Source: Naegleria gruberi
Lineage: Eukaryota
Assembly: GCA_000004985.1 (NCBI GenBank)
Contig: GG738870.1
Length of the DNA stretch: 64,000 nucleotides
Strand: one strand, 5' to 3'
Part shown: one piece after another, positions 6,522-64,000 of the stretch
Layout: each line of letters opens with the position of its first letter
Position numbering within the stretch: the first letter of the stretch is position 1
Notes under the pieces: generated by a model
What the model saw: only the letters and a program-made list of their open reading frames with translations
Told to the model about the DNA's origin: nothing
Database searches by the model: none
Translations under genes and position numbers: made by a program

Positions 6522-7346
6522 ATTAGTTTTGTATTATTCAGAAGAATTTAAATTTTCTCTTCACCGAGAATAATAATCGGTGATTTTAGATTATTCCGTG
6601 TCCTTTTATCAATAAACAAGGGTTTGTTTTATTTAAAAACCTGATGTGATGATATTAATTGAAGAGAATAATGAAGCAAAATTGAAAATATTAACAAAAG
6701 GAGAGAATCATCACAGTGATGATGATGACAATCTAAATATACAATCAATGGAAAACAAGACTGCCACTCCTCAACAACATAAGATAACACACCCCATCGG
6801 CTTCAACCACACAAAAACATCAAGTCTATCAAAATAGGGTGCTAAAAAACAAAAAAAATGATTGGCAGAAACAAGTAAGTAACTGATGCAAGTTACAGAT
6901 TTGGCCGACTCACACTCAAATAACATCATTATCTAACCGGTTGTCTATTTGCATATCCATTCATTACTCAATGTTTTAAATGTTCTCTCATCATTTGATG
7001 AAGACACCTCATCACTTCTCTCGGAAAGCATAATCTAAAAAAAAATCAGTCAATCCTCTCTTCTGTAAGCCACCGTTCACAACCAGCTTTATCGGCAGCA
7101 ACACATTTGATTGATCAACAACAATTGGAAAGAAAAACCTCTACAACAACATCACTCTCTTGTAAAAATTATCACACCAATATTAGTGGTTCAATTCCTT
7201 CTAATTGTAATTTACCAAGCCAACCTCGTAGTAGAAATACAAACAAAACACTAAAAGTAAGAGGAGATTCATCACTCATCACAACTAGTACTAAACAACA
7301 AAGAAATATATCAACATTTGTTTTTGACGAAGACGACGACGAAGAA

Positions 7347-9329
7347 ATGATTCAAAATAATTTGGTTTTTGATTTAACTCCTGAACAAATTGAAAAGGAA
7401 ACTGCTGCCTTAATTGAAAAATCAAGAGCTGTTCATGATTCTGTTGCAAAGCTTGCAGAATCTGAAAGAACTTTCCAATCAGTCGTTTTACCAATTGCTC
7501 AAGATGAAGCCTACTTCTCTGTACATGAAAATAATGTCACATTCCCTTCATATGTTAGTCCAGATAAAGCAGTCAGAGATGCTGCTTCTGCTGCTGAAGA
7601 AAAAATTTCAGAATTCACCATTGATATTTTGATGCGTGAGGATGTGTATAGAGCTGTTAAATATGTTTCTGATAAGATGCAATCTGAATTGGAAAAGTAT
7701 GACGAAGAAGATAAGAGACTTGTGAAGAGAATTCTCAGGGATTACGAAAGAAATGGATTGGGATTACCAGAAGATAAGAGAGCAGTTGTAAAGGATTTGA
7801 AGAATCAACTTTCCAAGTTGTGCATTCAATTCACCAAGAATGTTTCTGAAGATAAGACTGTCCTCCATTTCACAAAGGAAGAATTGGATGGAGTTCCAGA
7901 AGATGTCATTAATGACTTTAAGGTCTCTGAAGAAGATCCAAATAAGAGGGTTGTCTCAATGAAATATCCAGAAGTAATGCCAGTCATGAAATACTGTAAA
8001 GTTGAAGAAACAAGACGTAGATTGGATGTTGCTCGTTCTTCACAATGCCAAGAAGCTAACGTTCCATTGTTCGAACAAGCTGTCAAGATTAGACAAAAGA
8101 TTGCAGAAATTATGGGTTTCAAGACTCACTCTCACTATGTTTTGGATGTCAACATGGCTACTCCAGATGAAGTTTTAACCTTCTTGTACAATCTCAGAGA
8201 TAGACTTTTGGATGGTGGTAAACAAGAACTTGAAGTACTCAAACAATTGAAAGGATCTGAAGTTTTCTCATGGGATTACCTCTACTTGTTGACCAAGCTC
8301 AAGGAAGAACAATACAGTGTCGATGATAACTTGATTAAGGAATATTTCCCATTGGATTATACTCTTGATGGTTTACTGAGTATTGCTCAAGAAACTTTCT
8401 CTCTCAAGTTTGAAGAAGTTAAGGATGCTAAGGTCTGGTTTGAAGGTGTTAAATTATACAATGTTTTTGACAAGGAAACTGATGATCATTTGGGTCAATT
8501 CTATTTGGACTTTTTCGCTAGAGATGGCAAGTATAGCCACTTTGCTGCCTTCCCACTTTCTCCTCACTACTTTGATGCTGAAGGAAAGGAACAATTCCCA
8601 GTCACTGCCATGGTTTGTAACTTTACCAAACCATCAGCTGAAACTGGTGTCTCCCTCTTGAAGCATGATGAAGTCATCACATTACTCCATGAATTCGGTC
8701 ACTTGACTCACGGATTCTTGTCTAAGACTAAGTATGCTAGATTCAGTGGTACTCGTGTAGAAAGAGACTTTGTTGAAATGCCTTCTCAATTCATGGAAGG
8801 TTATGGATGGGAGACTCAAGGTTTGAAGAGATTGTCATCTCACTATAAGACTGGAGAAAAACTTCCAGATGATCTCATCAAGAAGATGATTGATGCCAAG
8901 AATGTTGGTGTTTCACTTTTCAACTTGCGTCAATTGTTCTTTGGTATCTTTGATATGACTTGCCATACTTTTACTTCTGCTGAAGAAGCTGAAAAGCTTG
9001 ACAGTGGTGCTTTGTGGAGAAAGCTTAGAAGAGAGGTTACCTTATTGGAAAATCCAGAAGGTACTAACGGAGTTGCTTCATTTGGGCATCTCATGGGTGG
9101 CTACGATTCTGGATATTATGGATATTTGTACTCTGAAGTTTTCTCTACTGACATGTTTGGAGAATTCAAGAAGCAAGGTATCTTCAATCCAGAAATTGGT
9201 AAGAAGTACAGAAAGCTCATTTTACAAAGAGGAGGATCTAAGGATGGTGGTGTCATGTTGAGAGAATTTTTGGGTAGAGAACCATCTCAAGATGCCTTCT
9301 TGGAAGATATTGGTTTGCTTAAGAAATAA
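7347..9329 (+). CDS. M3-family zinc metallopeptidase (thimet oligopeptidase / saccharolysin-like)
   Basis: The HEFGHLTHG HExxH zinc motif is present. The N-terminus NLVFDLTPEQIEKETAALIEKSRAVHDSV aligns with human THOP1 DLRWDLSAQQIEERTRELIEQTKRVYDQV. The track start at 7107 is a TTG codon; the first ATG is 7347. The frame is open upstream to 7002 with no ATG, so an upstream spliced exon cannot be excluded. Confidence 0.8.
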   Translation: MIQNNLVFDLTPEQIEKETAALIEKSRAVHDSVAKLAESERTFQSVVLPIAQDEAYFSVHENNVTFPSYVSPDKAVRDAASAAEEKISEFTIDILMREDVYRAVKYVSDKMQSELEKYDEEDKRLVKRILRDYERNGLGLPEDKRAVVKDLKNQLSKLCIQFTKNVSEDKTVLHFTKEELDGVPEDVINDFKVSEEDPNKRVVSMKYPEVMPVMKYCKVEETRRRLDVARSSQCQEANVPLFEQAVKIRQKIAEIMGFKTHSHYVLDVNMATPDEVLTFLYNLRDRLLDGGKQELEVLKQLKGSEVFSWDYLYLLTKLKEEQYSVDDNLIKEYFPLDYTLDGLLSIAQETFSLKFEEVKDAKVWFEGVKLYNVFDKETDDHLGQFYLDFFARDGKYSHFAAFPLSPHYFDAEGKEQFPVTAMVCNFTKPSAETGVSLLKHDEVITLLHEFGHLTHGFLSKTKYARFSGTRVERDFVEMPSQFMEGYGWETQGLKRLSSHYKTGEKLPDDLIKKMIDAKNVGVSLFNLRQLFFGIFDMTCHTFTSAEEAEKLDSGALWRKLRREVTLLENPEGTNGVASFGHLMGGYDSGYYGYLYSEVFSTDMFGEFKKQGIFNPEIGKKYRKLILQRGGSKDGGVMLREFLGREPSQDAFLEDIGLLKK

Positions 9330-9350
9330 ATCATGCTTGTATTGATGTTC

Positions 9351-9425
9351 TATTGTAAGTTTCCAGAAAGCGTTTACGTGAAAAGTTTGATGCGAACTTT
9401 TGGCGCTTTCTGGAAACTTACAATA
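9351..9425. repeat. Perfect 22-bp inverted repeat (arms 9351-9372 and 9404-9425) around a 31-nt loop; a strong hairpin 22 nt downstream of the peptidase stop codon
   Basis: tattgtaagtttccagaaagcg and cgctttctggaaacttacaata are exact reverse complements. A nested aaaagtt/aactttt pair lies in the loop. Confidence 0.8.
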
Positions 9426-22490: not shown

Positions 22491-23933
22491 ATGCATCTAG
22501 ACCAAGACATGGACATTCCCTCTATCTCTTCTCCTTCTTCAACTCAAGCAGCCTCCACATTCCTAGGATCTCTTCCCGATCCTAATGCAATGACCAGAAA
22601 ATCAGTGCTGGCCATTGTGAAAGGAAAATTCACATCTTGCACAAAACATCTTCAGAGAACAATAATACAAAACGAAAGGACGAGGAAATTTATTCGAAAA
22701 TCGAAAGAATTTATTGAATTTGCTGGCGAATTTTCAAGAAAGGACTTGTTGGAGATTGTGTGGAAAAAGTGGAAATTGGCAGTTTTGTGTTTTTTATTTG
22801 GAATATTAATTGGATTCTTCTTTTTGAGTCATGACACAAGAGTTGAGGAGGATTTGACAGATGCCAGAATGAAAAATACTCTTTCATTTCCTTTACCTGA
22901 TGGATTTGATGAAAAGAAAACGACACAGGATAATTTTGACCTGTTGAGACATTTTTACTTGTCCTATTCGAGACATTTGTTGAATTATGAAGGCGGACAT
23001 TTGGATGTTTTTGATACATCTGTGAAATCAATTAAGGATATTGAACCATCACTATTATTTAAGAATTTTACATTGAAAAGTAAGCCAGTTGTTTTGAAAG
23101 AGTTTGGAATTGGTTGGAGAGCTAAAAGAGAATGGTACAAGGTTGACTATTTGAAGAGTTACAAACAGGAGGAAATGTACAGTGTAGAAAAGAACAAGAA
23201 TGGAATTTTCCATGAATTGAATATTGAGAATGCTAAATTTGAAATGATGGTAAGTTGGAAATCACAAGATTGAATTTACTGAAACGATGAAAGAATTTCA
23301 AAAAATTTGTGGAACAATCAGTCAAATACAAGTTGCTTCTCTCGGTTGACCTTTCAAAGTTACCACATTTACAGCATGACATTCCAAAATGGCCAACTGT
23401 TGTTTCAAATGGTTTCTACACTCACATCTCCACTCATTCTCTCATTACCACTGGAAAAACAACTAGATTGTTAAAATCGAGTAAGTAATCTTTCTACTCC
23501 AAATTATTGAATCAATTTTAATAGATAATTACGAAACTATTCAATGCCAAATCGTTGGAAAGTCTGAACTACTTTTATTCGATCCATTCCAAGTTGATTT
23601 GTAAGTAGAATTTCAACTAGAATTTCACACAACAAATTATTAACAAGACTTTATCCACATGAAAGTTATCCTAATCATGTCCGATTCAATCCATACAGTC
23701 CAGATGAGAAGAAGTACCCTCTCTCTCGATTTGCACGACCTCTCAAAACCCAATTGAGTGAAGGTGATTGTCTCTTTATTCCATCCTATTGGTTCTATTC
23801 AGTTCAATCAAATTCTGATTTGGGATCCAATCATCTCAATCCATCTGATTTTAATATTGTTGTTGAATATTACTATTCGACCATTAGCAATGCTCACAAA
23901 GTCTCATATGAATCAATTCTCAGAGGCCAATAA
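22491..23933 (+). CDS. JmjC-domain (cupin) protein, probable 2-oxoglutarate/Fe(II) oxygenase. Four exons: 22491-23249, 23333-23480, 23525-23600, 23648-23933
   Basis: JmjC hallmarks: KPVVLKEFGIGWRAKREWYKVDYL; GKSELLLFDPFQVDL|LYP; GDCLFIPSYWFYSVQ. All donors are GTAAGT and the phases (0, 1, 2) close the frame. Total 1269 nt = 422 aa. Confidence 0.65.
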
Positions 23934-34283: not shown

Positions 34284-34333
34284 NNNNNNNNNNNNNNNNN
34301 NNNNNNNNNNNNNNNNNNNNNNNNNNNNNNNNN
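34284..34333. other. Assembly gap (run of 50 N)
   Basis: Literal N characters in the sequence. Confidence 0.99.
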
Positions 34334-43156: not shown

Positions 43157-45971
43157 ATGCCCAGACACCATGTTGAATTATTCACACCAGAATTTAGGCA
43201 ATTGATTTTGAACAGTTGCACCCAAAACGAAAGCTCATCCGTATCATATTCTCCATCATTTAATTATGAGGAAGTTAATCATGAAACAGAACCACAAATT
43301 CGTTTGTCTATCCGATTCAAACCAGAAAGTACAATTGCAATAATTGAAAAAAGATTGCTCCGAGCTGATTTGGATATCATATTTAAAATGTATAATTTAA
43401 AAAGAATTTTTGGATTTCAAGTTTTGAATAGATTTGATGAGGGAAGTTCTAAGAAATTATTATCCGAATGTGATTTCTCTCAAGCACAACAAATGGCTGA
43501 AATTATTGAATACATGTTCGTGAAAGATCTCTCTAAACAATTATCCAATCATATCAAAGTACGTAAATGACAATATAGTATAATAATCACTGATTTTTTC
43601 AGGTTAAAATGGCTACCATTAAAGATGTGACAACTATCGTAAACGAGGTCAATCAATGGGTTACAACAACACTAGCCCAATTCAATAATCAAGAAGAAAT
43701 AGTCTTAACTCCAATTGAAAAAAGCTATTCATATTTCTCTGATAAACCATACAGTAAGTACTTACTATTTTTACATATAATAGTTTACACATTTCAGAAG
43801 CCAATCAAAACAAAATTACCAAAAAGTCAGATAATTACGAGCTTAATACCATCAAATTTATGCATAAGGGCTCATTTTCCATTGAACAATTTTTTTCTAA
43901 TAAGATTTTCGAGAAGCAATGTATTACAGAGAAGCAGCCTAACCCTCTTTCTAAAAGATTTTTACACAAATCTGTGTTTATTAGATCCAAAAATTGTATT
44001 GTAACATATGGAGGGTTTGCAATTGGAAAAGGAATCACTGACGACATTATCAAATTTGATTTGGAACAAAAGAAAGCTACTCAATCAACAAGTAGAAAGG
44101 GAAGAATCTTTCACACCTTTGATTACCTTCCACACTTGAATAAGATGGTAGTTTATGGAGGAATTGAAAAAACTGGATCCATTTCCTCTGACTTAATTAG
44201 TATTTCAATGGACTTTTCTTCGGATGTCAGAAGTAATGAGTTTTTACCACCTCTATGCTGTCACTCTGCAGTTACACTTTTTGACACTCTCTACATATTT
44301 GGGGGTTTTAATGGAAGCACCTCAAAATATTCCAATACCATGTACTCATTACATATTCCAACATTAAGTATCAAATCTTCAGCATCCAAATTTTGTCCGA
44401 GTGAAAGAATTGGATCTGCAATGACCATAGTTGGGGATAATATTTTTGTTTTTGGAGGAATGGATTCTAATGGAAATATTCTCTCAGATATTTACAGATA
44501 TAACATTTCACAAGATTTATTCCATCCTATCTTATCTGATGAATATGCCATTAATCCAAAATTATGCTTTTCTAATATGTTTATTATAGGAAATAATATC
44601 TACCTATTTGGAGGTTGGAATGGTGTAGAATGGAATAATTCTCTTTTTGAAACAAGCAAAGAAGAATTTAAATGGAAAATAGCAAAAGGTTATACTAATA
44701 GTATTAGTTCTGATTTTAATTCATATAATCCTATGAGTAGTATTGTACCTGTATCAGAGAAAATAATTTACTTACTAGGAGGATTGGACTTACCTTTCCC
44801 TTTCATTTCAATACTGGACACATTTGCTACTTTAGCGACTGGAAAAATTGACTTTACAATTTCAAATACAAAGCCAAGTTACAGAATATTTCAACACAAA
44901 CGTCAAACAGATGAATTTTTACTCTCACAAACATACTTGAATTGGTTTAAGAAGCAAATTCCAGAAGAGTGTGACGTGACCATTCTTGTTAACATCCCAA
45001 ACCAAGTTGAGCAAGAATTATTTTATGGATTCAAGTTAGTTCTTGTAAGATCACCAGTATTGTCAAGAAAAATATTGGAACAAGAAGGCCATAATAAGTG
45101 GCGTAATTTGAAGCATGGCAGCCATGCTGTTATCCTCTTGGATGATTTCCCATCAAACGTAGAAAATTTGAGAAGGTCATTCAATTCAGTTTTGGAATAT
45201 TTATATTCTGGATCCTTCTCAACAAAGGATTTAAAGTCTGAAGATTATTCAGACATTTACAAGGTGGCCTGTTACTTAGAAATACCACTACTTTACAAAG
45301 CTCTTGATGGAACACTCAATGTTGATGATTCACTGGAAACAAAGAATCTATTATCCACTATAACCATTCAACTTGACCATTTATTCAGCCCATGTGAAAC
45401 CATTTCGAATATTGAAGATTTCATGACAACTATTGATGAAAATCCAATTGCACCTGGAATGGTGAAAATCATTGCCCCTACCTCATTAGATAGCTCAACA
45501 TATCAATCTATTCTTGTCCACAAGTTTATTTTGACTCAAAGATGTAGATATTTTAATGCTGTGTTTGAAATGAACTTCCTAGAGTCTCATACTAGAGTTG
45601 TTTTAATTGAGCAGAATACCTTCAAAGGTCTATTGTCAATTTTACATTTTGTTTACACTGGTAATATTGTGGAGCTAGATCTTTCCAACGCAGTAGAAAT
45701 CTTCATGTCTTCATTCCAATTTGAACTGGAAGAACTAATGGAAGCTTCTAAACTATTCATTAGAGAACATGAATTTGATGTATTTACCACTATTCGACTA
45801 TTAGAGATTTGTGAAACAGTAAATGATAAGATCATGCAAGATTATTGCAAGTATAGCATTGCTAAACGTTACGAAATAGTTATGAAACATGATCCATCAG
45901 CACTTGATAATTTAAGTAAGGTATCTAGAGTGGATATAAATGATTTAAGAAAGTCTGTTTTGAAGCACTAG
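43157..45971 (+). CDS. Kelch-repeat / double BTB(POZ) protein. Three exons: 43157-43558, 43603-43753, 43807-45971
   Basis: Donors GTACGT at 43559 and GTAAGT at 43754; the phase-1 junction forms Lys across PY|K|ANQNK. Kelch blades: CIVTYGGFAIG, MVVYGGIE, LYIFGGFNG, IFVFGGMD, IYLFGGWNG. BTB domains: DVTILVN...FKLVLVRSPVL and ILVHKFILTQRCRYFNAVFEMNF...LSILHFVYTG. Total 905 aa. Confidence 0.65.
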
Positions 45972-48810: not shown

Positions 48811-49132
48811 AAAGTTGTTTGGTGATACTTTTTTATTTGACCATTGAGGAAGGACCAAGAGCAACAAGGAAAGAAGAGGTTTCGTTCATTAGGATGTTTT
48901 TTTGTGTACGATTTTGTGCCGATAGTGCGATGATATTATAAAAACTACTTATTTTACAATGTATTTACAAGTTTATTAAATTTACAATTATTGGAATAAA
49001 CCATTCAGTGAATCCAAAAAGTCTAAATTATTTTGTTGTAAAGAAGTTCCATTAACATTCATAGCAAAGGTGTGATCATTCATTGCTGCAAAGGCATCAA
49101 ATGAAGGAAGGAAAGCATCTTCGTTATTATTA

Positions 49133-50964
49133 CTAGTTGGATTGAATTGTGGTACTTGTTGAGGATCCAAAAATATTATTATTATTGTTAGTATTGTTGA
49201 GGAAGTGTTGAAGAGTTTGGTCTGTATGTGCAGTGCTGTTGTTTGCTCCAAGCATCAACGGCATCATATCTTGGCTATAGAGGTAAGGAGTATAAAAGTT
49301 TGGATTGGAATTAATCATAGAGAAGACATCAGTATTATCAAAGTTATTCAAATTATTTGTGTTTGGATTACTTGTAGTGTTGTGTCGTTGTACTTTGAAT
49401 AATTCTGCTTGTTCAAGAAGTAATTCAATATCTCTTATCAATTGTTGGAATCTAGTCTTGACAACTTCATACTTTGTACCCAAAAGTTTAAGTGCCTTTA
49501 AGTCGTCACTCAAAGCTCTTACTAACATGTCATCTTGGTAAGCAGCAAGATCTTTGACTAATAAATTATAGTGAACTCTAGCGGCAATGGCCAAAGATCT
49601 GATTACAATGACAGGAGCTAATTCGAATGTAGGTATTCTTGTAAGTGAGGTAATTCTATCAGCAGCTTCTTTAACTTGAATGGAATCTTTGAGGCCATGC
49701 TTTTCCAAGACCTTAATTCTCATAGTATCAAGATACATCAAATAAACAATTTTGCTCAAATCCTTCTTTGAGGAACACAAAGTATCTGTACAGGATGTGC
49801 TGAGTGATGTAGTCAAGAGGTCAAGTTTTTTCATCTTTTCTGAAAGTTCTTCTTCACAAACAATAAATCCATTCTCAGATGATTCAATATTAAGTTCTGG
49901 GTGGTTATGAATGATGAGAGATAACAATCTATTCAATAAGAAGCAACATTGAGCCTTATCTTCTTCCATAGCCAAATGTATGACTGTTGTTAAACCCTTC
50001 AAAAAGGATGAATCTGTTTCACTAGTGTTATGTTTTTGTTGTTCAAGATAAAAGAGAACTGAATTCAAATAGAATTTAGCACCCAAAAAGTCTCCTTCTC
50101 CTACAAGGTAACTTGAAAGATAGGCATATGAGCAAACAACATTAAAATCTGTGATATTATCAAAAACTGTGGAAACGGTTTGTCTTGATCTTTGGTAAAG
50201 TTGTTTTGACAAATCATGTTGACCAATTCTTTGGAAGCAAACAGATTGTAAAGCATAGAGCAAAGCCAAATCAGGTACATCAATTTCATGCATAAACTTC
50301 TTCTTTTTAACAGCACCAGTGACAACACTACTGTTGGACAAGGAATGACTCATCAACTTATCCATCTTTGATCTTTGGTTAACTGGTAAAGAATCTCCAA
50401 CAATTTCCTTATAAACATCAAAGCAAAGCTTTTTGATATATTCTTCAGATAATCTTGTTGCCGATTGGTCTATGGTTATTTCCTTTGGTGAAATTGAAGT
50501 ATTTTCTGCTGAATCAGTTCCGTATGAGGTTGCAGCTCCAGGTGTAACAAATTCAGAGTCAATGTTTGGTCTAATTTCGTTTGATTCAGTGTGTTTTCTC
50601 TTTCTCATATTACTTTGAGCATCCTCAGGAATGACAGAGTCTTCCTCCTCTTCTTCTTCATGGTTATGTAATTCGGGAATAGCCAAAGGATTTTCGTCTC
50701 CACCCTTCTTTGGTTGTGGTCCTCTCTTCTTTGGTGATCTATACGAACACTCTTTTCCAAGTCTCTTACAATTACTACAGTTAGGAAGTTTTTTATCACA
50801 TTTACGATGTCCTTTTCTACACTATATAACACTACTATTAAAACAGGCTATAATATTTTACCATCACTTACCTGCACACAAGCTATTGCCGAAAATTGTT
50901 CAATAGGTTGTTCACGAAGGCTGTTAGATAATTTTCCTACTTGTACTTCTTCTTCGTTAATCAT
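49133..50964 (-). CDS. Zn(II)2Cys6 binuclear-cluster (GAL4-type) transcription factor with fungal-type middle-homology region. Two exons: 50872-50964 and 49133-50821
   Basis: The cluster SAIAC-VQ|C-RKGHRK-C-DKKLPN-C-SN-C-KRLGKE-C-SY has C-x2-C-x6-C-x6-C-x2-C-x6-C spacing. The first Cys sits in exon 1, separated by the 50-nt intron 50822-50871 (GTAAGT). Total 593 aa. Confidence 0.7.
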
Positions 50965-51405
50965 TTTTGATGTCAGTCACTTTAGATGATGGTGATGATC
51001 AATTAGAAATTCGTATGATGTTGTTGAATCGTAAACGTTTATCAGCGAACGTTCTCTCTCGCGAAAGCACAAACTACTACTATTGGACAATTTCTCTCTG
51101 CGCTCGCAATGGAGGGTGCGGCCGTATTTTTTCAAGAATGATTGCTTGCAGGCTCTAGTAGCATAAAGAGGGTTTATTAAACAATTGTACGCACGAGCTA
51201 GGTTAACCCTATGCGGATTTTCAAGGTTTTTGATTGTAAAGCAGCTTGTTATGTTGTTGAAATCGGCAACTACATTTACTACTATTATAGAGTGGTAGTA
51301 ATTACTGTGAAGAGATGGAAATCCATTGCAGAATCTTTTCAATTTGGAAGTTGGATTACATGGGCTTTGACTTTTGGGAACCAAGTCAATTAAGGAATAA
51401 TGTGT

Positions 51406-53599
51406 TTATTGAGTGTCAAATCTTGAGAGTGGATGAGCTTCAGTAGTAAACACATACTTATCTAGAGGAATTTGGTCATCTGTGAATAATAAATACAAAT
51501 ATTTGAGAGTTTCAGAAAGGAAGAAGGATTCCATAGCATTATCTCTCACACCGTCTACAATTAGAACATTCTTCAGACCTGCATAGGCAATTGGAGTCTT
51601 ACAATGCTTTTCAATAGATTGGAAAATGTTCCAACCCCATTCCTTGTACATTTTATCACCAGTTAGTCTGTACAAAATAAAGATTGATTCAATTGCTTCT
51701 GGTCTAAGAATGTAATGAGGAGCTTGAAGGGAGAAATCATCTGTTTCACTTGAAAAGTTTACAATTTCACATCCAATACCTGTTGGTTGTCTTTTGTAAA
51801 TTTCGTAACATGTACGAGTAAGTTCCTTAGCCAAATTCATATCTTCATCCAATTCTTCTCTTGTAACATTCATTCCAATATTACTTGATTCGAGAGATCC
51901 AAGAGCTAACATGCCACCCTATAGTTTGATAATTAGGTGTTAAAATAATGAAACAAATAATAATACTTACAGCAAAACAAACCAAATGGTCAAATTTTGT
52001 TTGTACAACCCCACCTCTCATTTCTCCAATATAGACTAATTTGTTTGGAGTTGATCTTTTGATAAGATATTTCTTGAGACCTCTAACAAATTCTCTGTAC
52101 ATTCTGTGGAATTTTTCATCTCCTGTCATCAAGTATTGCTTTAAAAGATATTCGTAAAAACTATCTCCTAAAGCTCCTAAAGTGATATGGTCTCCATGGA
52201 AAGCACCATTTTCAGTATTGAGATAGCTTGGATAAAGACCTTCATATGCCTTGGTTTGAGAATCCAATACTTCCATGATTTTTTGGGCATGTTGTGCAAA
52301 TCTTCTATCACCTGAATGTTTTGACAAGTATTTAAATTCCAATTGAATAGATCCTGCTTCAGATAGAATTGATGTGGTTCTATGCCAATCAGCATTTCTA
52401 AAAGATCCTGATTGAAGATTAACCTCAGTGTGAGGGAAAGATGTATCCTTATGGAATGCAGGCAATAATTTTTCAGCAATTTCTTGTGCCTTATACAAGT
52501 AGACAGAATCTTTTGTAAGGTCGTAGATACTCAAAAATCCCTGTATTGTAATTCATCATTTGAATTGTGAAATAATGTAATTTGTGAAATTGTTAAATTA
52601 TAATGAGAATATTTCAAAACTTACACCAACATAACGAATGGTAGTTTCAAAAACAGATACCCATTGGTCTTTATCAAAGCTAAGAGTACTGATAAATTGT
52701 TTGCTTTTCTCCAACTCATCCTTCAAACCCATAATAAACATAGTATCTAAACTGTCAACAATAGTCGCAGCCATATTTCCAAAGTTGTCTCTTGACTAGA
52801 TATTTTAGAAAGGATTAATTTAAACTCAACTTACATCATTTGTTAATGGTCTTACTTCATCATGTCCCCATGCATATGTTTCATAACCTCTCCATGCATG
52901 TAAAAATGCATTTCTTACAGAGTTTCTTCTGAATTCATCTGTAGTTTCATCTGCAATTTCAACAGATGGAAAATCTTGAGGAGTGTGCTCTTCCTTTTGC
53001 TCTGCATGAGTGCTTGGCTGTTGAGATTCTGATTCCTTACTAATAATCTGCTTTTCATGTTTGGATTCTTCATTAACTATGTTTGAAGTCGGCAGAGGAG
53101 CTGATTCTTGCTCTGTTATGATGCTTTCCTCTGGTTTAGCTTGTGATTCCAATTGTTGTAAAGTTGATTGTTCTGATGTTTGTTCATTTGATAATACTTT
53201 ATCTGTAATACTTGGTTCATTGTTATTATTATTTGTTGGTTGTTCATAATTTTGATCTTTTTCAGTCTCAACTCTGAGTTGTGAATTCAACATATTGCCT
53301 CTCTGTTTAATTTCTCTCTTTCCATCAAAATAGATTTTCAATGCAAAAATCACACCTCCTAAAATTAAAAAGAAAATTACTAAAGTGGTGATTGTATTGA
53401 TGGTTGAGCGTTGGGCTTTCTTTCCTTTAGATTTACTTTCGTCATCCTCCGATGTGTTACTAACACTATCATTTGATTCTATTGCTCGCGATGATCTATT
53501 TCTAAGCGTAGTAGAATTATCACTTCTCTCATTAGTTGCCGAAGCACTGTTTTGACTAACACGTGGCAATTCTTCTTCACCTGCCAATGTTGAAGACAT
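51406..53599 (-). CDS. Class I alpha-1,2-mannosidase (glycoside hydrolase family 47), type II membrane protein. Four exons: 52835-53599, 52625-52795, 51971-52540, 51406-51918
   Basis: GH47 blocks across the junctions: YAWGHDEVRPLTND|SRDNFGNMAATIVDSLDTMFIMGL; FETTIRYVG|GFLSIYDL; DHLVCFA|GGMLALG; LRPEAIES; ESFFLSETLKYLYLLF. Introns of 39, 84 and 52 nt, all GTAAGT. N-terminal transmembrane segment ITTLVIFFLILGGVIFAL. Total 672 aa. Confidence 0.8.
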
Positions 53600-55845: not shown

Positions 55846-56871
55846 ATGAGAAAACAACATTGTTTTCTATTCCTCATTGTACTATGCCACTGGTCAACCA
55901 TGATTCTCGCTCACTGCCCACCTGGATATTATGATAATAATGTCCCACATGAGAGCAGATGTATCCTTTGTGGTTTCGGTCAGTACTGTCCAGGCAATGG
56001 CCAATATTTCAATTGTCCTTCTGGAACCATTGCTCCAAATACAGGAATGTCATCTTGCACAAAATGTTCATACAGCAATAGAACCAACAGTGCCTCAACT
56101 GTTTGTTTGTTGGCAGACACTCCAAATAATGCGCAAGAAGCTCTCGAATATGGTACAGACTCCGGTGATGACAACTTGGATCTATTCAAGATTAGTGCAA
56201 AGCAACAATTTTACTTTACCACTATTGAAACTGCTGACATACCATTAGATAGATCTCATCCCATTCAATACAGCTTCGTTGCTACAAACAGGAAATACGA
56301 CATTCCACTCATTGTGATCGCTTCCACTAAAACTGGTCAACCAAGCAAGAGCAACTTTCAATGGATTGCCTCTGGACAAAATGCCACACTCATTATTCCA
56401 GTCGACTGGATCGATACAAACACAAACTTTATTGGTTTATACTTCTCTATCATCCCATCTGTTGATTATACCGTTCCATTTCTTGCAACAACTTTTAAAC
56501 ATTTCAGAGGTGAAATATTCGCAATTCCAAATAGAAAGGTTAGTCAAGATTTCAAGACTTTTCAGTTTATGACAAACCAAGCAGTTGTTGAATGGAGTGG
56601 AATTCCATCCTTGAGAAAGGTGAATGTTTCTGTGACATTAAGTGATTTGACTCATCAAGATGATTCCAATCTATTCTTTAGTTTGTGTTATTCAACTATT
56701 CCAACAATTGATTTTCCAAACTTTTTCAATTCCAATATGGTTGTCAGAGGTAAAGTCAATAATCAGATCAATATCATTCTGGAAAATATATCTGGAGGAA
56801 AATTGAAACTAGGTGTCGTTGGTGGTCTAATTGACTTGGCAAGAATCACTGCAGAACTTGTCATCTTGTAA
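55846..56871 (+). CDS. Secreted protein with Cys-rich furin/TNFR-like repeats, 341 aa
   Basis: Signal peptide FLFLIVLCHWSTMILA, followed by CPPGYYDN...CILCGFGQYCPG...CPSGT...CTKCS. ATG ORF. Confidence 0.5.
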   Translation: MRKQHCFLFLIVLCHWSTMILAHCPPGYYDNNVPHESRCILCGFGQYCPGNGQYFNCPSGTIAPNTGMSSCTKCSYSNRTNSASTVCLLADTPNNAQEALEYGTDSGDDNLDLFKISAKQQFYFTTIETADIPLDRSHPIQYSFVATNRKYDIPLIVIASTKTGQPSKSNFQWIASGQNATLIIPVDWIDTNTNFIGLYFSIIPSVDYTVPFLATTFKHFRGEIFAIPNRKVSQDFKTFQFMTNQAVVEWSGIPSLRKVNVSVTLSDLTHQDDSNLFFSLCYSTIPTIDFPNFFNSNMVVRGKVNNQINIILENISGGKLKLGVVGGLIDLARITAELVIL

Positions 56872-56953
56872 TAATTGTCTTATTAAACTCTGGTTTATTG
56901 TAATAAATTTAAAAGATTTAACAAATCCATATTAAACAAAAAAAATACCACCA

Positions 56954-57697
56954 ATGAGATTCGAGCCATCGGAAGAGGATTTGAAATATTTTGATCGGAA
57001 TTTATTTCATGACATGGGAGAGATTAAAACATTGCTATCGTTCTATCATTACTATTCGTGCCAGGAATTAATGTTTGAAAAATTGAAAATAACAAAGGCT
57101 GGTGTAGGAAAATGGTATGGTTATGATCCATTTATTAAAATATGCATGAGCAAATACATGATGGGGAGTAAACCATCTTGTTTGGAGAAGTGGAGTGATG
57201 TAGATTGGATGGAAAAGGATTTCACAGCTAGGGAAAGAAGGGATTTATTCAAGAAAATTGCAACTTGCAATCATTCAGTCAGTAGTCCTAAACTAGATGA
57301 GGATGTGGGTGTGACAAAACATTATATAGATTTATTGGAGAAAAGGACTGGGTTGTCTTCCAAACTCTTGCCCCAGCTCTATAAAAATCTGTCAAAAGCC
57401 CCAATTCAACAAGATGAATTTAGTCTTGCTGCGGAAGATGTTCAAAGAGTTATTAAAGAAAATGGTCTGGAAAACCAAGCACAACTTTCTGAATATGACA
57501 GGGAATTGAATTCAAAACTGAAACATTTTCCATTGAAATATTCACTCTTGTCCACAGATTATTTTGCAAATTATACAATGGGATGTATAAGAAACTTTGT
57601 AGAAAGAAATCATTTATTTAGCAATGAGGAAATCTTAGATAGAACTCTAATTTCTCAACAATTGCATTGCATACTGGGCATTGAAATAGAAAGATAA
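56954..57697 (+). CDS. Hypothetical protein, 247 aa
   Basis: ATG ORF; no motif recognised. Confidence 0.45.
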   Translation: MRFEPSEEDLKYFDRNLFHDMGEIKTLLSFYHYYSCQELMFEKLKITKAGVGKWYGYDPFIKICMSKYMMGSKPSCLEKWSDVDWMEKDFTARERRDLFKKIATCNHSVSSPKLDEDVGVTKHYIDLLEKRTGLSSKLLPQLYKNLSKAPIQQDEFSLAAEDVQRVIKENGLENQAQLSEYDRELNSKLKHFPLKYSLLSTDYFANYTMGCIRNFVERNHLFSNEEILDRTLISQQLHCILGIEIER

Positions 57698-57917
57698 GAT
57701 TTTTGTTAAATATTTTAGTATAACACCCTTTCCATTCCTTTCTCAATACATTTCCAATAAAGTTTAATCTATTAACCATGCTAGTCTGGTTCCTTGTTCT
57801 AACCTTCAGCAAAACCAAGCATGATTTTGGTCTCTTCAAAACAAGATCAAAACAAATCAAACAAAAACTATCAGTGCAACCGTTGCTGAATAATAATAAA
57901 TAGAGATCGAAATCATC

Positions 57918-58951
57918 ATGGGGTTCAACGTTACGACCTTGCTCTTGGACAAGTTCACCGAAGAGTTGAAGAAAGGCTATGAAAAAACCTACGGAGGCTT
58001 GAATTCAAACTACAAAGTAAGTGTCAAATATTCAAATATAATCTAATCATCATCTTCTCCCACAGGAAATTATTTGTTGGGCTGCTAATATGGCATTGGA
58101 TATTATTTCTAATAGTGATGCTTTGTATCATAATGTTGAACATACAATTCATGTCACTTTGGTTGGTCAGGAGATTTTGAGAGGTAAGTTGTGTGGCTAG
58201 AGATTATTTCGGAGGCTAATATCATCATAGGTAAACATATTAAAGAAGGAGGAGTGTCATCAGAAGATTGGCTTCATTGTATCATCAGTCTCTTGTGTCA
58301 CGATATTGGTAGGTTTTATATTTAAATATTTGATGACAATAACAAATCAATATTATTATGACAGGATATGTTAGAGGAGTTTGTAAAAAGGATAACATTG
58401 AACAAGGAATATTTGCTACTGGAAAAGGAGAAGAAACAGTAACTGTAATATCAGGCTCAACTGATGCTTCATTAACCCCTTATCATGTCGATAGAGGCAA
58501 ATTATTTGTTGAGGAAAGATTTAGTGGACATTCTCTGATTAAGGTATCAGTTATTCAAAAGAATATTGAGCTCACTAGATTCCCAGTTCCAATTGGAGAA
58601 GATCCAAAAGATTCTAATGGGTATCCAGGTATTGTTAGAGCAGCTGATTTAATTGGTCAATTATCAGAACCTCGTTATTTACAAAAAATTGCAGCTCTCT
58701 ATTATGAATTTGCAGAAACAGGAACAGCAATCAAGCTTGGTTACAAATGCCCAGGTGATTTGAGAAACTCCTATCCTAAATTCTATTGGAAATCAGTTTA
58801 TCCTTATATTAAGAATATTTTACCATTCCTCAACACAACTCAAGAAGGTAAATTCTATCTTGCTGGTCTCTATGCCAATGTCTTCAGCGTTGAGCATCTT
58901 GAAGGATCAATCTCTCCTGTCGATGAAGCTCCTGTAAATGTTGAACACTAA
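57918..58951 (+). CDS. HD-domain metal-dependent phosphohydrolase. Four exons: 57918-58016, 58066-58183, 58231-58308, 58365-58951
   Basis: HD metal ligands HNVEHTIHV and LLCHDIG. Donors GTAAGT, GTAAGT and GTAGGT. The phase-1 junctions rebuild Gly codons (R|G|KHIK and DI|G|YVRGVC). Total 293 aa. Confidence 0.65.
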
Positions 58952-59327
58952 ACCATCATACTATTGTAAAATAAATTCATGAAATTACTTGTACAATTGT
59001 TTTAAAGGTTTTCTTAATACGTTTTTACACTGAATAAAAAGGCAGGACATAGTTACCAGTTATCTACTGTAAATTAATTTCACCAATCAAGACATGGTTT
59101 ATTATCTTTGATAGAGAATCATGGAAAATAGGAAAGCAATAAAAACTCTCTCTAAATGACCGACATGTCCACGAATTAAAAGTACAATAAGCACAACGAG
59201 TTCAAGTTTTGTTGTCAATGTTATTGCGACACTTCACCAAAAACTGGCTGTATTCTTTATCCTTCCTCAAAAAAAAAACAACTAACCTCTCACTCCACAC
59301 TACGTCATCATCATTCTAGAGAAGAAA

Positions 59328-61727
59328 ATGGTCAACAGTGAATTGAACAAGCTTCCATTCCATGAACAAGAATTGATCGAAAAACATTTGACCAATATGA
59401 ACTTATTGGGAGGATTGGATCATTATGACCATGCTGGATATTTAAAGTACTCCGATAGGATGGGTAATTCATCATCTGGCTCTGAGATTTTCATTCATCA
59501 AGACTTGTTGAAAAACAATAGTAATGTTTTGGAGATGAATCACACAAGCAATTCAAAACAATTAAGTTTTGCCGATCCTGATATTCGTAAACAGTTAATG
59601 GATGAATATAATAAGCATATTTTAAATCCTTACGGTAATGGTCTTTCTAGATTGTTTGATTGTGTGGATTTGCACGCTAATCAAAGACCAAATGATATTG
59701 CCATTCGTGAATATAATACTGGAGAAGATGTTACTTGGTCTCAGCTTCAGCTCAGTAGTAGAGCTATTGCTGCCAAAATGTTATCTTTGGGATCCTTTAA
59801 AAAGGGAGATATCGTTGTTACTCATCTTCCTCTATTGAAGGAACATTTGTATTTTATGTATGCTTGTTGGAGATTGGGAGTCATTGTTGTTCCACTCGAT
59901 TTACGTTTGAAAGATAGTGAAATTTGTGTTTCTTTGGATAAATTATTAGGCATTACACCAAATGATACAAAGGGAAATGGAAAGGTTAAAATGTTTGTCT
60001 TTTTGGGTAAAACTCCAATTCATGATTTCCGTCCTATCATTGACCAAGTAATGGATAGATTTGTTTCAAAAATTCCACATTGGATTCAATTCCAAAAGGA
60101 AAAGGAATTTATCATGCCACGTGCTGTTAGTGTTACTGACTTTTTGTCTGATGCCAAGAGTGTGTATATTATGAACAGAATTAAGGAACTGTCACTTGGA
60201 ATGATCCTTCCATCCTCTTTAGTATCAACAGTCGCTTCAATGGAAGCACAATGCACACGTCGTACACCAAATCTCATTATTTTCACAACTGGATCAACTG
60301 GTGTTTCAAAGGCCGCTATTCTTTGTCATGAAGGTATTTTAATGCAAAATTTGGCTACCAAAATTGCATTTACAGGTATCTTCCCTAATCCACACAAATT
60401 GGTCAACTTGTGCAACCTTCCTCCATCACATGTTGGTTGTCTCACTGAACAAGTTTTGACAGCCATCTATGGAGGTGGTCAATTGGTTATTATTCACGTT
60501 TTTGAACCAGAAAAATCCCTTGATGCAGTTCAAAAGTACAAATGTAACCTTATTGGACAAATTCCAGCCCTTTTCTCAATGGTAAGTTTTTTTAAAATGT
60601 TCAATGAACAAAATCTAACTCTATTAGGAATGGGCTTTACCTAACTATAAAAAATATGACATTTCAAGCTTGGGAATGGCAATTTATGGTGGTCAAGCTG
60701 TTACTAAGCCATTCTTGCATAAAATGCAAGCTATGGCTCCATATATTGGTTCAGGATTGGGACTTACTGAAACAGCTGGTTTTTGTACATATACTCCAGT
60801 TGGTATTTCTGTTGATCAAATGTCTCTAAGTATTGGATTTGATGCTCCTTTCTGCCCAATTTCAATTCGTGATCCTCCAAGAAAAGTCACTTGTCCAAGA
60901 ACAGGCAAAGTCTTCTTAATTGCAGGAGAAGAAAAAAAGCCAGGAGAAGTAGGTGAAATTTGTCATAATGGACCTCAAATCTTCCTTGGTTATTTGAATG
61001 ATTCCAAGACAACAGGTGAAACTATCATTCCAATAGATTTGGATACAGCAGCTAAATTGGATTATTCAAAGATTTTGAATTATGATCCAATTGATGGAAA
61101 TTTGAATGGAACAAACAAATCAGGAATTGTCAACCAAACCCACCCAGTTAATTATTATAATCTCCTTTTATATACTGGTGATATTGGTTCATATGATTCA
61201 ACAGGTCTTCATTTTGCTTCCAGAAGAAAATTCATCATCAAGCCAAAAGGATATCAAGTCTTCCCAGGTGAAGTTGAAGAACATTTGGAACAACACTTTA
61301 AATTATTGGGAGCTCCTCAAAGTTTGAAGAATGGAAAGCTTTGGGATATGGTAAAGTCAAGATTTGAGGAACAAAAAGATGAAAGCGCTGTTTTAAGAGT
61401 TGGTGTTGTTGGTGTGGAGCATGAAATTTATTCTGAAGCTGTTGTTGCTGTCGTTGAATTGAAGAAAGACCTTGTTGAGCTTGCCAAACAACACACAACA
61501 GATCCAGAACGTTGGTTCGATTTAATTTTGAATGAGAAGGAAATTATAGAAGCATGTAAGGATATTGCTGCTTATAAGAGACCTTCCTATGTTTTCTTCT
61601 ACCTCCTGGAATGGATATGCCTCTCAATAGAACAGCCAAGATTGATTATTTGGCCTTACAAGATTTTGCCAAGAAACAAGCTGCTGCTTTGGAACAAAAG
61701 AAGAAACTTCGTTACTCGTCACTCTAA
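59328..61727 (+). CDS. AMP-dependent acyl-CoA synthetase/ligase. Exons 59328-60581 and 60628-~61600, with an apparent frameshift near 61596-61608 before the last ~40 codons
   Basis: AMP-binding motifs IIFTTGSTGVSKA, YTGDIG, GYQVFPGEVE. GTAAGT intron 60582-60627 joins FSM|EWALPNYKKYDISSL. The conserved tail LPPGMDMPLNRTAKIDYLAL...* (stop at 61725-61727) is in a different frame from KRPSYVFFY. Confidence 0.6.
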
Positions 61728-62460
61728 GAAGAATATTAAAATTATTAACACAAAATATCTTATTGTAAACCATCTTCTTTCATAAAGAGTTTCACTTGTA
61801 AAAACACCTTGCAATATTAACATTAAATAATTCACTCTCTTCAACTCTTCCCATCACAATAAGGTTTAGTATATTTAAAGAACCAACCTCAAAAAAATAC
61901 TCATCATCTAAACTTCCTTAAAAACAAACTGAGTATTTATCAATATCCAACTCTCTTCAAAGCATTTCACAATTTTATACAACACCTTCACAACATAATT
62001 AATCAACATCTGTAGTTGTATAACCTATTACCTTATTTCTATTTTTATCAATTGTGTATGAAAAAATACCCTTCCTTTTATTGCTCAAAGGCAACTTCTT
62101 CCTGTCTTGCCTCTTCTGTTCTATGAATCTTTTATTACTCCGTGATTTGGCTTTTTCGGTAGCCATTTCGATGACAAGTCGTTAAAGTGATTCTCCAGCA
62201 TAAATTTGACGTCTTCGCTGCTCAAAAGGATTTGTGCTCAAATTCCGTCTAAAAATAAAATCAAAAAAAAAACACCTAGAAAACCAACGTAAATTTTCTA
62301 CAACGGTTTTCTTCTAGACAAGTACTGCGACTCTAATTTTACGATTACTTTGCGTGAATAATTTATTATTGGCTAATTTCATCATTCAACGGATTTTCCA
62401 TTATACAACAAATTGGAAGTAAAAGGATTTTAGGATAAACGTTTATCATAAAACATCAAA

Positions 62461-63609
62461 ATGAGACAACAAATTATGGAAGGAGAAACATTTGATATAC
62501 CGGAATATTATAAATTGGAAAAGATTATTGGTAGAGGATCGTATGGAGTTGTTGCTAGTGCTCTTGATACGAGGACTAATGAACGAGTTGCCATCAAGAA
62601 GATTTCCAATATTTTCCAAAAAAACAAGGACTATCAAAAACGTATTGTTAGAGAGTTGAAAATTCTAAAACACTACAATAGTGTTCATGGACATGAGAAT
62701 ATTGTTCAATTGAAGGACTTGGTTGTTCCAAGATCTGAAAATGAACTGAAGGATTTGTTCATTATAACTGAGTTGATGGATTGTACTGTTAGAGACGTTT
62801 TAAAGAGTAATCAAGCATTTACTGAAATTAACACCATTTACTTTTTGTATCATATGTTGAAAGGGTTGGCCTTTATCCACAGCTCTGGTATTGCTCACAG
62901 AGATATCAAACCTCAGAATATTTTGGTCAATGAGGTTTTCAGAATTGCCTACTGCGACTTTGGTTTATCGAGAGGAGTTGATATTGACTCTAAAATTTCT
63001 ACTAACGATGTTGCCTCAATGTGGTACAGGTCTCCTGAAGTTATTCTTGGTTATGAATATGGAATGAAACCAATGGATATTTGGGGTATTGGTTGTATTA
63101 TGGGTGAAATGCTCGCTTCAGGTAAAGTTTTATTCCAAGGTTCTTCTGCTCTCGATGTATTAGACAAACAACTTGAATTACTTGGTACACCAGAAGAAAG
63201 TGCAGTTAAAGGTTCTTTCAAAGCTGTCAAGTATTTCAAGTCGCTACCAGTCAAACAAAGACCAGACTGGAAAACATATTTCCCTAACGCCTCTCCAGAA
63301 GCTCTTGACCTGCTGTCCAAGATGTTAGAATTTGACCCAGATAGAAGAATCACAGCTGAACAAGCTCTTCAACATCCTTACCTTTCGTGTATTAGAGAAC
63401 AATACATGAGTGATGAAGAAATAGTGTGTAATTCTAAGTTTGACTATAGATTTGATGAATCTATGAAAACAGAATCTGTGCGTAAATTCCTTTATGAAGA
63501 ACTCAAACAATTTGTCCAATACAGTAACACATCTCCAAACCCAATAGTGAAGGATGAAACTGTGACATCACCACTTCCAACATCCAGAACAATTGGATGT
63601 ACTAATTAG
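62461..63609 (+). CDS. CMGC-group Ser/Thr protein kinase, MAPK-like, 382 aa
   Basis: GRGSYGVVASA glycine loop; VAIKKI; HRDIKPQNILVN; DFGLSR; WYRSPE. No TxY in the activation loop. ATG start; one exon. Confidence 0.75.
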   Translation: MRQQIMEGETFDIPEYYKLEKIIGRGSYGVVASALDTRTNERVAIKKISNIFQKNKDYQKRIVRELKILKHYNSVHGHENIVQLKDLVVPRSENELKDLFIITELMDCTVRDVLKSNQAFTEINTIYFLYHMLKGLAFIHSSGIAHRDIKPQNILVNEVFRIAYCDFGLSRGVDIDSKISTNDVASMWYRSPEVILGYEYGMKPMDIWGIGCIMGEMLASGKVLFQGSSALDVLDKQLELLGTPEESAVKGSFKAVKYFKSLPVKQRPDWKTYFPNASPEALDLLSKMLEFDPDRRITAEQALQHPYLSCIREQYMSDEEIVCNSKFDYRFDESMKTESVRKFLYEELKQFVQYSNTSPNPIVKDETVTSPLPTSRTIGCTN

Positions 63610-63788
63610 TTCATTCACCTCGATTTTGTTGAGGTTTTAATAACGAGAGACACTTGGTGAATGATACTAACGTGATGAATCCAATTGATTCATCATTTTT
63701 GCCAATCACATTCATACAGAGTCAGCCCAAATTGCTAGGATTTATTTATTTAATTTAACGCTAGTAGTAAAATAAAACCCAAATAAGG

Positions 63789-64000
63789 TTAAACTTGCTT
63801 TAAAAATTGTTTGTATTCTTTAGCTATGGAAAATAGTTCCAAACAACCACAAGTTTTGCAGTGGAAAGAAAGACAAAATTCAGGGCTATTGAATTCCTTG
63901 TAGCTCACCAATTCTAAATCACTTGCTACTTTGTAAAGTTGACCAGCTTTTTCCTTGTTTGTATTGGCGAAAAATCTAGCTGCAGAAACTAGCATATATG
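63789..64000 (-). CDS. Possible 3' end of a minus-strand gene running off the window end (Cys-containing C-terminus)
   Basis: A 68-codon open frame reaches the window edge. There is too little sequence to classify. Confidence 0.25.
   Translation of the reverse strand, partial: YMLVSAARFFANTNKEKAGQLYKVASDLELVSYKEFNSPEFCLSFHCKTCGCLELFSIAKEYKQFLKQV

What the first reader, a model, noticed from the sequence alone, without database searches (positions are those of the whole stretch)
61590..61727. Apparent frameshift at the C-terminus of the acyl-CoA synthetase gene
The AMP-binding domain reads cleanly to ...AAYKRPSYVFFY in one frame. The universally conserved tail LPPGMDMPLNRTAKIDYLAL (the P-x-T-x-x-GKI-D-R-type motif) and its stop at 61725 are in the +2 frame. 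No GT-AG intron fits in the few nucleotides between them. This is either a 1-nt assembly or sequencing error, a recent inactivating mutation, or an unusual recoding event.
Basis: seen in the sequence. Interest (0 to 1): 0.5.

Follow-up and report, generated by a model that had tools for sequence, protein, structure and literature searches.

The report
One-base frame break in Naegleria acyl-CoA synthetase
The last 43 codons of an otherwise intact Naegleria gruberi acyl-CoA-synthetase-like gene are out of frame because one base is missing from the deposited draft sequence, which is either a consensus error or an ordinary strain-specific null allele and not an intron or a recoding signal.

Summary
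The gene (exon 1 59328-60581, 46-nt intron, exon 2 from 60628) reads in one frame to ...AAYKRPSYVFF. The conserved end LPPGMDMPLNRTAKIDY...YSSL, with its stop at 61725-61727, lies in the -1 (+2) frame. Two orthologues with uninterrupted ORFs align colinearly if exactly one base is added between 61591 and 61601.

- **Intron:** none fits. Local introns are 44-55 nt and start GTAAGT, and every frame-restoring GT/GC-AG pair deletes conserved residues.
- **Recoding:** there is no slippery heptamer and no downstream RNA structure (z = +0.86).
- **Source:** the window is the draft Naegleria gruberi assembly. It is 100% identical to an N. gruberi protein and contains a 50-N gap.
- **Second case:** a transcription-factor gene in the same window has a T5 run. 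An independent Illumina assembly of a 99.6%-identical strain has T4 there and an intact ORF. The reference annotation bridges that break with a model that skips 18 residues.

The ACS break is therefore a one-base indel in the deposited DNA. I put a consensus error at about 0.5, a real NEG-M null allele at about 0.4, and recoding at about 0.03. No independent sequence covering the site could be found. Interest is low.

The parts
59328..60581 (+). Exon 1 of the acyl-CoA-synthetase-like (class I adenylate-forming) gene, codon starts = 0 mod 3
   Evidence: ORF list; tblastn of P0001/P0002/P0003/P0005; Pfam AMP-binding, 157 bits
60582..60627 (+). 46-nt spliceosomal intron, GTAAGT...TAG, moving the frame from 0 to 1 mod 3
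   Evidence: Sequence. Homology resumes at 60628. Same type as other introns in the window, 44-55 nt with GTAAGT. The orthologue in L003 has no intron here and is a single 743-aa ORF.
60628..61598 (+). Exon 2 up to the break, codon starts = 1 mod 3, ending ...AAYKRPSYVF(F)
   Evidence: 100% self-match to 61599; the orthologue matches end at 61599.
61591..61601 (+). Interval in which one base is missing: GTTTTCTTCTA, containing a T4 run (61592-61595), TT (61597-61598) and C (61599)
   Evidence: Inserting one base anywhere here gives YV(F)(F/L)LPPGMDM, colinear with the orthologues YVVFIPPSMDI and YIIFLPPTMEM.
61599..61727 (+). Displaced 3' end of the coding sequence, codon starts = 0 mod 3: LPPGMDMPLNRTAKIDYLAL...RYSSL plus TAA (61725-61727). 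The conserved A10-type lysine codon AAG is at 61638-61640. The product ends in a PTS1-like tripeptide, SSL.
   Evidence: The orthologues end ...KYSSL (P0001) and ...FYSKL (P0002).
61600..61785 (+). Read-through of frame A past the break: 62 codons without homology and with negative or near-zero codon-usage score, then TAA at 61783-61785

Best explanation
The deposited sequence lacks one base pair somewhere in 61591-61601, within GTTTTCTTCTA. The most likely reason is a consensus or base-calling error in the draft Naegleria gruberi NEG-M scaffold. On that reading the real gene encodes a full-length protein of about 784 aa ending ...AAYKRPSYVF(F/L)LPPGMDMPLNRTAKIDY...RYSSL. Shown: the frame break, its position to within 11 nt, its size (one base restores colinearity with both orthologues), the absence of an intron or recoding signals, the draft state of the source, and a second single-base frame break in the same window. 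Inferred: that the missing base is an artefact and not a genuine allele.
For: - **Localisation.** Translation and orthologue tblastn place a single -1/+2 break at 61591-61601, and one added base restores the same length as both orthologues.
- **The rest of the gene is intact.** There is one clean intron and no other lesion in 784 codons. The P-loop (FTTGSTGVSKAA), GLGLTETAG, YTGDIGSYD and SRRKFIIKPKGYQV motifs are present.
- **The tail still looks coding.** It is 56-59% identical to the orthologues against 56-66% for exon 2, its codon-usage score stays positive, and its stop aligns with the orthologues' stop.
- **Draft source.** The M3 peptidase ORF is 100% identical to XP_002676727 on a 418-kb N. 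gruberi scaffold, and the window contains a 50-N gap at 34284-34333.
- **A second single-base break in the same 64 kb.** The Zn2Cys6 factor gene has T5 at 49171-49175. An independent Illumina contig from a 99.59%-identical strain has T4 and an uninterrupted 565-aa ORF. The reference model NAEGRDRAFT_79904 lacks the 18 residues LDPQQVPQFNPTSNNNED that are continuous in that ORF, and its IFGSST-to-NAFLPSF junction joins the two frames.
- **General experience.** Frameshift errors in heterolobosean assemblies are routinely found and resolved by read mapping (bioRxiv 10.64898/2026.08.18.745565, read).
Against: - **No independent sequence of the site.** The only other source of this species (metagenome run ERR1078381) has contigs ending at 59138 and starting at 61725, so the gene is uncovered.
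- **Real small indels are common between the two strains.** There are 12 in 11.3 kb. All but one of the non-3n indels lie in non-coding DNA, and the coding indels I could place are multiples of 3. A genuine frameshift allele is therefore not far-fetched.
- **Position within the gene.** Both frame breaks lie in the last 5-10% of their genes. Tolerated real variants tend to sit there, whereas random errors should not.
- **Weak error context.** A T4 run or a doublet is only a weak context for a Sanger consensus error. That this assembly is a Sanger draft is my recollection, not checked here.
Confidence: 0.5

Rival explanations
1. The missing base is real. Strain NEG-M, or one of its haplotypes captured by the consensus, carries a very recent one-base deletion. 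The product then loses the A10 lysine and the C-terminal SSL, making a null or crippled allele of a dispensable or redundant acyl-CoA synthetase.
For: Natural 1-2 nt indels between NEG-M and the 99.5%-identical metagenome strain are frequent, and all sit in runs or doublets: G/GG, C/CC and T4/T5. Both frame breaks in the window are 3'-terminal. No N. gruberi protein model for this locus appeared among the homologues, although other N. gruberi models are in the same database. A paralogous clade is seen in the related species N. fowleri and W. magna (P0003, P0005), so redundancy is conceivable.
Against: There is no second lesion anywhere in 784 codons. The 43-codon tail is open, as conserved as the rest of the gene, and keeps coding codon usage, so the mutation would have to be very recent. 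It would remove the lysine conserved in the homologues and truncate the AMP-binding_C match. Two genuine frame-breaking alleles among about 25 genes would be a high load.
Confidence: 0.42
2. Programmed recoding. The DNA is as deposited and the full-length enzyme is made by -1 ribosomal frameshifting at U UUC on GUU UUC UUC, or by transcript-level insertion of a base.
For: The tail is conserved and retains coding codon usage. A P-site tRNA-Phe could in principle re-pair from UUC to UUU (read from the sequence).
Against: There is no X XXY YYZ heptamer: U UUC UUC fails at the A-site triplet (read from the sequence). The 120 nt downstream fold no better than shuffles, -18.8 kcal/mol, z = +0.86, with 163 of 200 shuffles at least as stable. 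Both orthologues are single ORFs at this position, so nothing is conserved. A T4 run is far too short for polymerase slippage (established knowledge). The second frame break in the window needs the opposite shift and is absent in the sister strain.
Confidence: 0.03
3. An unusual intron removes the frame difference.
For: One GT..AG pair of typical length exists (61591-61640, 50 nt) and restores the frame.
Against: Its 5' site is GTTTTC, not the GTAAGT seen at the introns inspected in the window. It would delete VFFLPPGMDMPLNRTAK, including the conserved lysine. All 29 frame-restoring GT/GC-AG candidates delete either AAYKRP or PLNRTAKIDY or leave out-of-frame residues. The conserved residues on the two sides abut with zero spare nucleotides.
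Confidence: 0.01

Closest known systems
Single-base indel (frameshift) errors in draft heterolobosean genome and transcriptome assemblies, resolved by read mapping
   Same: One gene is split between two frames at a short run, orthologues are intact, and the rest of the gene is undamaged. The same window has a second such case, contradicted by an independent assembly. Comparable cases in Naegleria clarki, Creneidae and another heterolobosean are described in bioRxiv 10.64898/2026.08.18.745565.
   Different: In those published cases reads were available and settled the matter. Here no read-level or independent sequence covers the site.
Polymorphic loss-of-function frameshift allele (unitary pseudogene at its birth)
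   Same: A single lesion, 3'-terminal, in a member of a multi-paralogue enzyme family. Natural indels are common between strains.
   Different: There is no sign of relaxed constraint in the tail, and the catalytic lysine would be lost, so this would not be a merely truncated but active product.
Programmed -1 ribosomal frameshifting (viral and rare cellular cases)
   Same: A -1 shift would join two conserved coding segments.
   Different: There is no slippery heptamer, no stimulatory structure and no conservation of the arrangement in orthologues.
ANL superfamily class I adenylate-forming enzymes (acyl-CoA synthetases, 4-coumarate-CoA ligases, luciferases)
   Same: AMP-binding and AMP-binding_C domains. 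The best solved relatives are 4-coumarate-CoA ligases and luciferases. The protein is 44-46% identical to about 566-aa bacterial and Asgard-archaeal 'class I adenylate-forming enzyme family' proteins.
   Different: The heterolobosean orthologues are about 200 aa longer, through an N-terminal extension and inserts in the C-terminal part, and end in SSL/SKL. The substrate is unknown.

Membership tests
ANL / AMP-binding adenylate-forming enzyme (the gene itself) | Pfam AMP-binding (PF00501) domain above the gathering score | tested here: met
   157 bits against a cut-off of 29.9
ANL / AMP-binding adenylate-forming enzyme (the gene itself) | Complete C-terminal subdomain (PF13193) including the A10 lysine | tested here: met
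   Met only after adding one base: 27.3 bits, profile 11-76/76. The as-is product gives 21.8 bits (below the 24.5 cut-off) and stops at profile position 65. The lysine in PLNRTAKIDY aligns with the K in the ≥80%-consensus motif of the 120 homologues.
ANL / AMP-binding adenylate-forming enzyme (the gene itself) | Acyl-CoA synthetase activity and substrate | not testable with these tools
   Names given by the sources (fatty-acyl-CoA synthase, acyl-CoA ligase) are annotations only.
Programmed -1 ribosomal frameshift site | Slippery heptamer X XXY YYZ in the zero frame | tested here: not met
   The zero frame reads UAU GUU UUC UUC UAC. The only near-candidate, U UUC UUC, has C,U,U as its second triplet (read).
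Programmed -1 ribosomal frameshift site | Stable stimulatory RNA structure a few nucleotides downstream | tested here: not met
   For 61586-61705 the MFE is -18.8 kcal/mol against a shuffle mean of -21.7, z = +0.86. Pseudoknots were not modelled.
Programmed -1 ribosomal frameshift site | The two-frame arrangement is conserved in orthologues | tested here: not met
   P0001 (L003) is a single uninterrupted 743-aa ORF, and the P0002 protein is colinear across the site.
Spliceosomal intron of this genome | GTAAGT 5' site, 44-55 nt length, and removal that preserves homologous residues | tested here: not met
   There is no GTAAGT between 60582 and the end of the gene. All frame-restoring GT/GC-AG pairs delete conserved residues.
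Decayed pseudogene | Several lesions and/or loss of coding signature downstream of the first lesion | tested here: not met
   There is one lesion only. The tail is open for 43 codons, 56-59% identical to the orthologues, with a positive codon-usage score. A very young null allele is not excluded.

The most novel reading that the evidence does not exclude
Both single-base frame breaks in this window (ACS at 61591-61601, needing -1; transcription factor at 49171-49175, needing +1) are genuine in NEG-M DNA. Full-length proteins are nonetheless made, by ribosomal slippage on U-rich codons or by a transcript-level correction. That would be a previously unknown tolerance or decoding of frameshifts in Naegleria nuclear genes.
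Probability: 0.03. Interest if true: 0.7.

Novelty: not a real feature. Interest (0 to 1): 0.08.

Why it matters
It matters mainly for curation. The locus appears to have no protein model in the N. gruberi reference proteome. A corrected model would add to the lipid-metabolism inventory a full-length enzyme, probably targeted to peroxisomes by its ...SSL end, in an organism that I recall has been reported to prefer lipids as fuel (not checked here). The neighbouring transcription-factor case shows that the reference annotation hides at least one single-base break behind a model that skips 18 residues, so similar errors may affect other N. gruberi models. If the deletion were real, it would be an ordinary strain-specific null allele. 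Only the unlikely recoding reading would be of wider interest.

Tried and rejected
**Looking for an independent copy of the site**
- A protein search with the C-terminal 111 aa found only one distant archaeal fragment.
- A scan of JGI metagenome contigs with the last 261 aa found no relative.
- Exact look-ups of the exon-1 ORF and of the frameshifted exon-2 ORF found nothing.
- Exact look-ups of flanking ORFs gave metagenome contigs that stop at 59138 and start at 61725, so the site is not covered.
- Other look-ups failed.
- The N. gruberi scaffold is not in the positional index, so the reference annotation around the gene could not be read.

**Other checks**
- Paralogues: none in the window.
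- Intron: enumerated and rejected.
- Recoding: rejected on slippery-site reading and folding.
- Other apparent frame switches found by the codon-usage scan (near 51919-51970, 43753-43798, 23483-23647, 1650-1696 and 3024-3076) all turned out to be ordinary GTAAGT introns.
- Literature: nothing on PRJEB11402 and nothing specific on this gene.

Full report
**Observation.** The region was read and translated in all three forward frames. Frame A has codon starts = 1 mod 3 and runs from 60628. It reads ...EACKDIAAYKRPSYVFF and then continues for 62 codons with no similarity to anything (YLLEWICLSIEQPRL...) to a TAA at 61783-61785. Frame B has codon starts = 0 mod 3 and is open from 61578. It reads (ETFLCF)LLPPGMDMPLNRTAKIDYLALQDFAKKQAAALEQKKKLRYSSL, with TAA at 61725-61727. 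The shift needed to go from A to B is -1, or equivalently +2.

**Gene structure.** Exon 1 is 59328-60581. A 46-nt intron follows (60582-60627, GTAAGT...TAG), and exon 2 starts at 60628. The conceptually repaired protein is 784 aa. It has Pfam AMP-binding at 157 bits and AMP-binding_C. Its best solved relatives are 4-coumarate-CoA ligases and luciferases.

**Homologues.** The nearest proteins are these:
- an uninterrupted 743-aa ORF on a JGI metagenome contig (P0001, 67% identity; L003);
- a Willaertia magna protein (P0002, 55%);
- a paralogous clade in N. fowleri and W. magna (P0003 and P0005, 45-46%);
- several hundred bacterial and Asgard-archaeal 'class I adenylate-forming enzyme family' proteins of about 566 aa, at 44-46% identity.

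**Position and size of the break.** At the junction the orthologues read YKRPTYVVFIPPSMDIPLTRTAKIDYLAL and YKRPLYIIFLPPTMEMPLNRTAKIDYLTL. The window reads YKRPSYVFF in frame A and LPPGMDMPLNRTAKIDYLAL in frame B. tblastn of the orthologues against the window ends the frame-A match at 61599 and restarts in frame B at 61581/61596, at the same orthologue residue. Adding one base anywhere in 61591-61601 (GTTTTCTTCTA) gives YV(F)(F/L)LPPGMDM, the same length as both orthologues. A 2-nt excess would also restore the frame, but it would make the protein one residue shorter than both orthologues.

**Further support for the break.**
- A codon-usage log-odds score trained on the window's 22 longest ORFs changes frame at the same point. 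It stays positive through the tail and is about zero or negative in the frame-A read-through.
- The tail contains the motif shared by at least 80% of 120 homologues, PLNR-AK-DY--L.
- Pfam AMP-binding_C reaches the end of the profile and passes its cut-off only in the repaired protein: 27.3 bits against 21.8 bits, cut-off 24.5.

**Intron rejected.** The introns I inspected in this window are 44-55 nt and begin with GTAAGT. There is no GTAAGT after 60582 in this gene. I enumerated every GT/GC...AG pair that would restore the frame. All 29 remove either AAYKRP or PLNRTAKIDY or leave out-of-frame residues. The only one of typical length (61591-61640) starts GTTTTC and would delete the conserved lysine.

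**Recoding rejected as the main reading.**
- The zero frame UAU GUU UUC UUC UAC contains no X XXY YYZ heptamer.
- The 120 nt from the site fold less well than shuffles (z = +0.86).
- Both orthologues are single ORFs here.
- T4 is too short for polymerase slippage (established knowledge).

**Source.** A single-exon M3 peptidase ORF in the window (7107-9326) is 100% identical to XP_002676727 of Naegleria gruberi, on a 418,085-nt scaffold. The next best hits are N. fowleri at 80% and W. magna at 67%. The window carries a 50-N scaffold gap at 34284-34333, so it comes from the draft reference assembly. No N. gruberi protein was among the ACS homologues, so the locus seems to have no model in the reference proteome.

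**An independent strain.** Exact look-ups of window ORFs found contigs of one metagenome run (ERR1078381, ENA assembly ERZ929261). They are 98.95-99.6% identical to the window over 11.3 kb.
- The differences look like real polymorphism. Of 12 indels, most lie outside coding sequence, and those I could place in coding sequence are multiples of 3.
- These contigs end at 59138 and begin at 61725, so exactly the ACS gene is uncovered.
- No other copy of the site could be found.

**A second frame break in the window.**
- The codon-usage scan flagged an open, coding-like frame just past the stop of a Zn2Cys6-type factor gene (49133-50686, minus strand).
- An exhaustive HMMER search returned a 565-aa protein, 99% identical, that continues through that frame (P0242).
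- Its contig (L006) has T4 where the window has T5 (49171-49175) and matches the window at 99.59% otherwise.
- The reference model for this gene (NAEGRDRAFT_79904, P0392) reads ...NNNNNIFGSSTNAFLPSFDAF... It lacks the 18 residues LDPQQVPQFNPTSNNNED that are continuous in the other strain, and its IFGSST-to-NAFLPSF junction joins the two frames.
- So the draft carries at least two single-base, run-associated, 3'-terminal frame breaks in 64 kb.

**Weighing error against real allele.**
- For a consensus error: the draft status of the source, the two breaks among about 25 genes, the perfect state of the rest of the ACS gene and of its tail, and the loss of an essential lysine if the break is real.
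- For a real allele: frequent natural 1-2 nt indels between the two strains in the same kinds of context (G/GG, C/CC, T4/T5), the 3'-terminal position of both breaks, and the existence of a paralogous ACS clade in related species.
- I put error at about 0.5, real NEG-M allele at about 0.42, recoding at about 0.03 and intron at about 0.01. Only reads or a PCR product can decide.

**Verdict.** What is there is a one-base indel in the deposited DNA of an otherwise normal adenylate-forming enzyme gene. It is ordinary, of curation value only, and scores low.

Noticed in passing
window 49133-50686 (-), T run 49171-49175; tail to 48988: This is a second single-base frame break. The Zn2Cys6-type factor gene has T5 here, whereas an independent Illumina contig of a 99.59%-identical strain (L006) has T4 and an uninterrupted 565-aa ORF (P0242). 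The reference model NAEGRDRAFT_79904 (P0392) lacks the 18 residues LDPQQVPQFNPTSNNNED at this point, which looks like a short artificial intron used to bridge the break.
   Followed up: yes
window 59139-61724, compared with L004 (ends at 59138) and L001 (starts at 61725): The metagenome assembly of the near-identical strain (ERR1078381) has contigs on both sides that stop 190 nt before the ACS start codon and resume exactly at its stop codon. No protein from the gene is in the databases. The cause could be low coverage, a haplotype bubble or a structural difference, and it is not known which.
   Followed up: partly
window 59328-61727: No Naegleria gruberi protein appeared among the 120 best homologues of this gene, although N. 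gruberi models for other genes of the window are in the same database. The locus seems to be unannotated in the reference proteome.
   Followed up: partly
window 34284-34333: A run of 50 N, a scaffold gap, shows that the source is a draft assembly.
   Followed up: yes
window 59328-61727; P0004, P0015, P0047, P0061 and others: The closest non-heterolobosean relatives of this enzyme are about 566-aa proteins of Syntrophales/Deltaproteobacteria and Asgard archaea (44-46% identity), not other eukaryotes. The heterolobosean versions carry about 200 extra residues and end in SSL/SKL, which resembles a peroxisomal PTS1. Lateral transfer or an ancient origin is possible but was not analysed.
   Followed up: no
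window 58358-58951 (+): The precomputed annotation of the identical metagenome protein gives this 197-aa ORF upstream of the ACS gene a Pfam hit to PF28239 (Npun_R2479), whose name suggests it was defined on a cyanobacterial protein. My own Pfam scan at E <= 1e-4 did not report it.
   Followed up: no
window 6595-9352, 55861-59138, 48961-51877 and 61725-64000, compared with L007, L004, L006 and L001: The window and the metagenome strain differ by about 0.4-1%, with 12 indels in 11.3 kb. Most indels lie outside coding sequence, those I could place in coding sequence are multiples of 3, and all but one of the 1-2 nt indels are in non-coding DNA. This is a clean signature of purifying selection and of generally good sequence quality in both sources.
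   Followed up: yes
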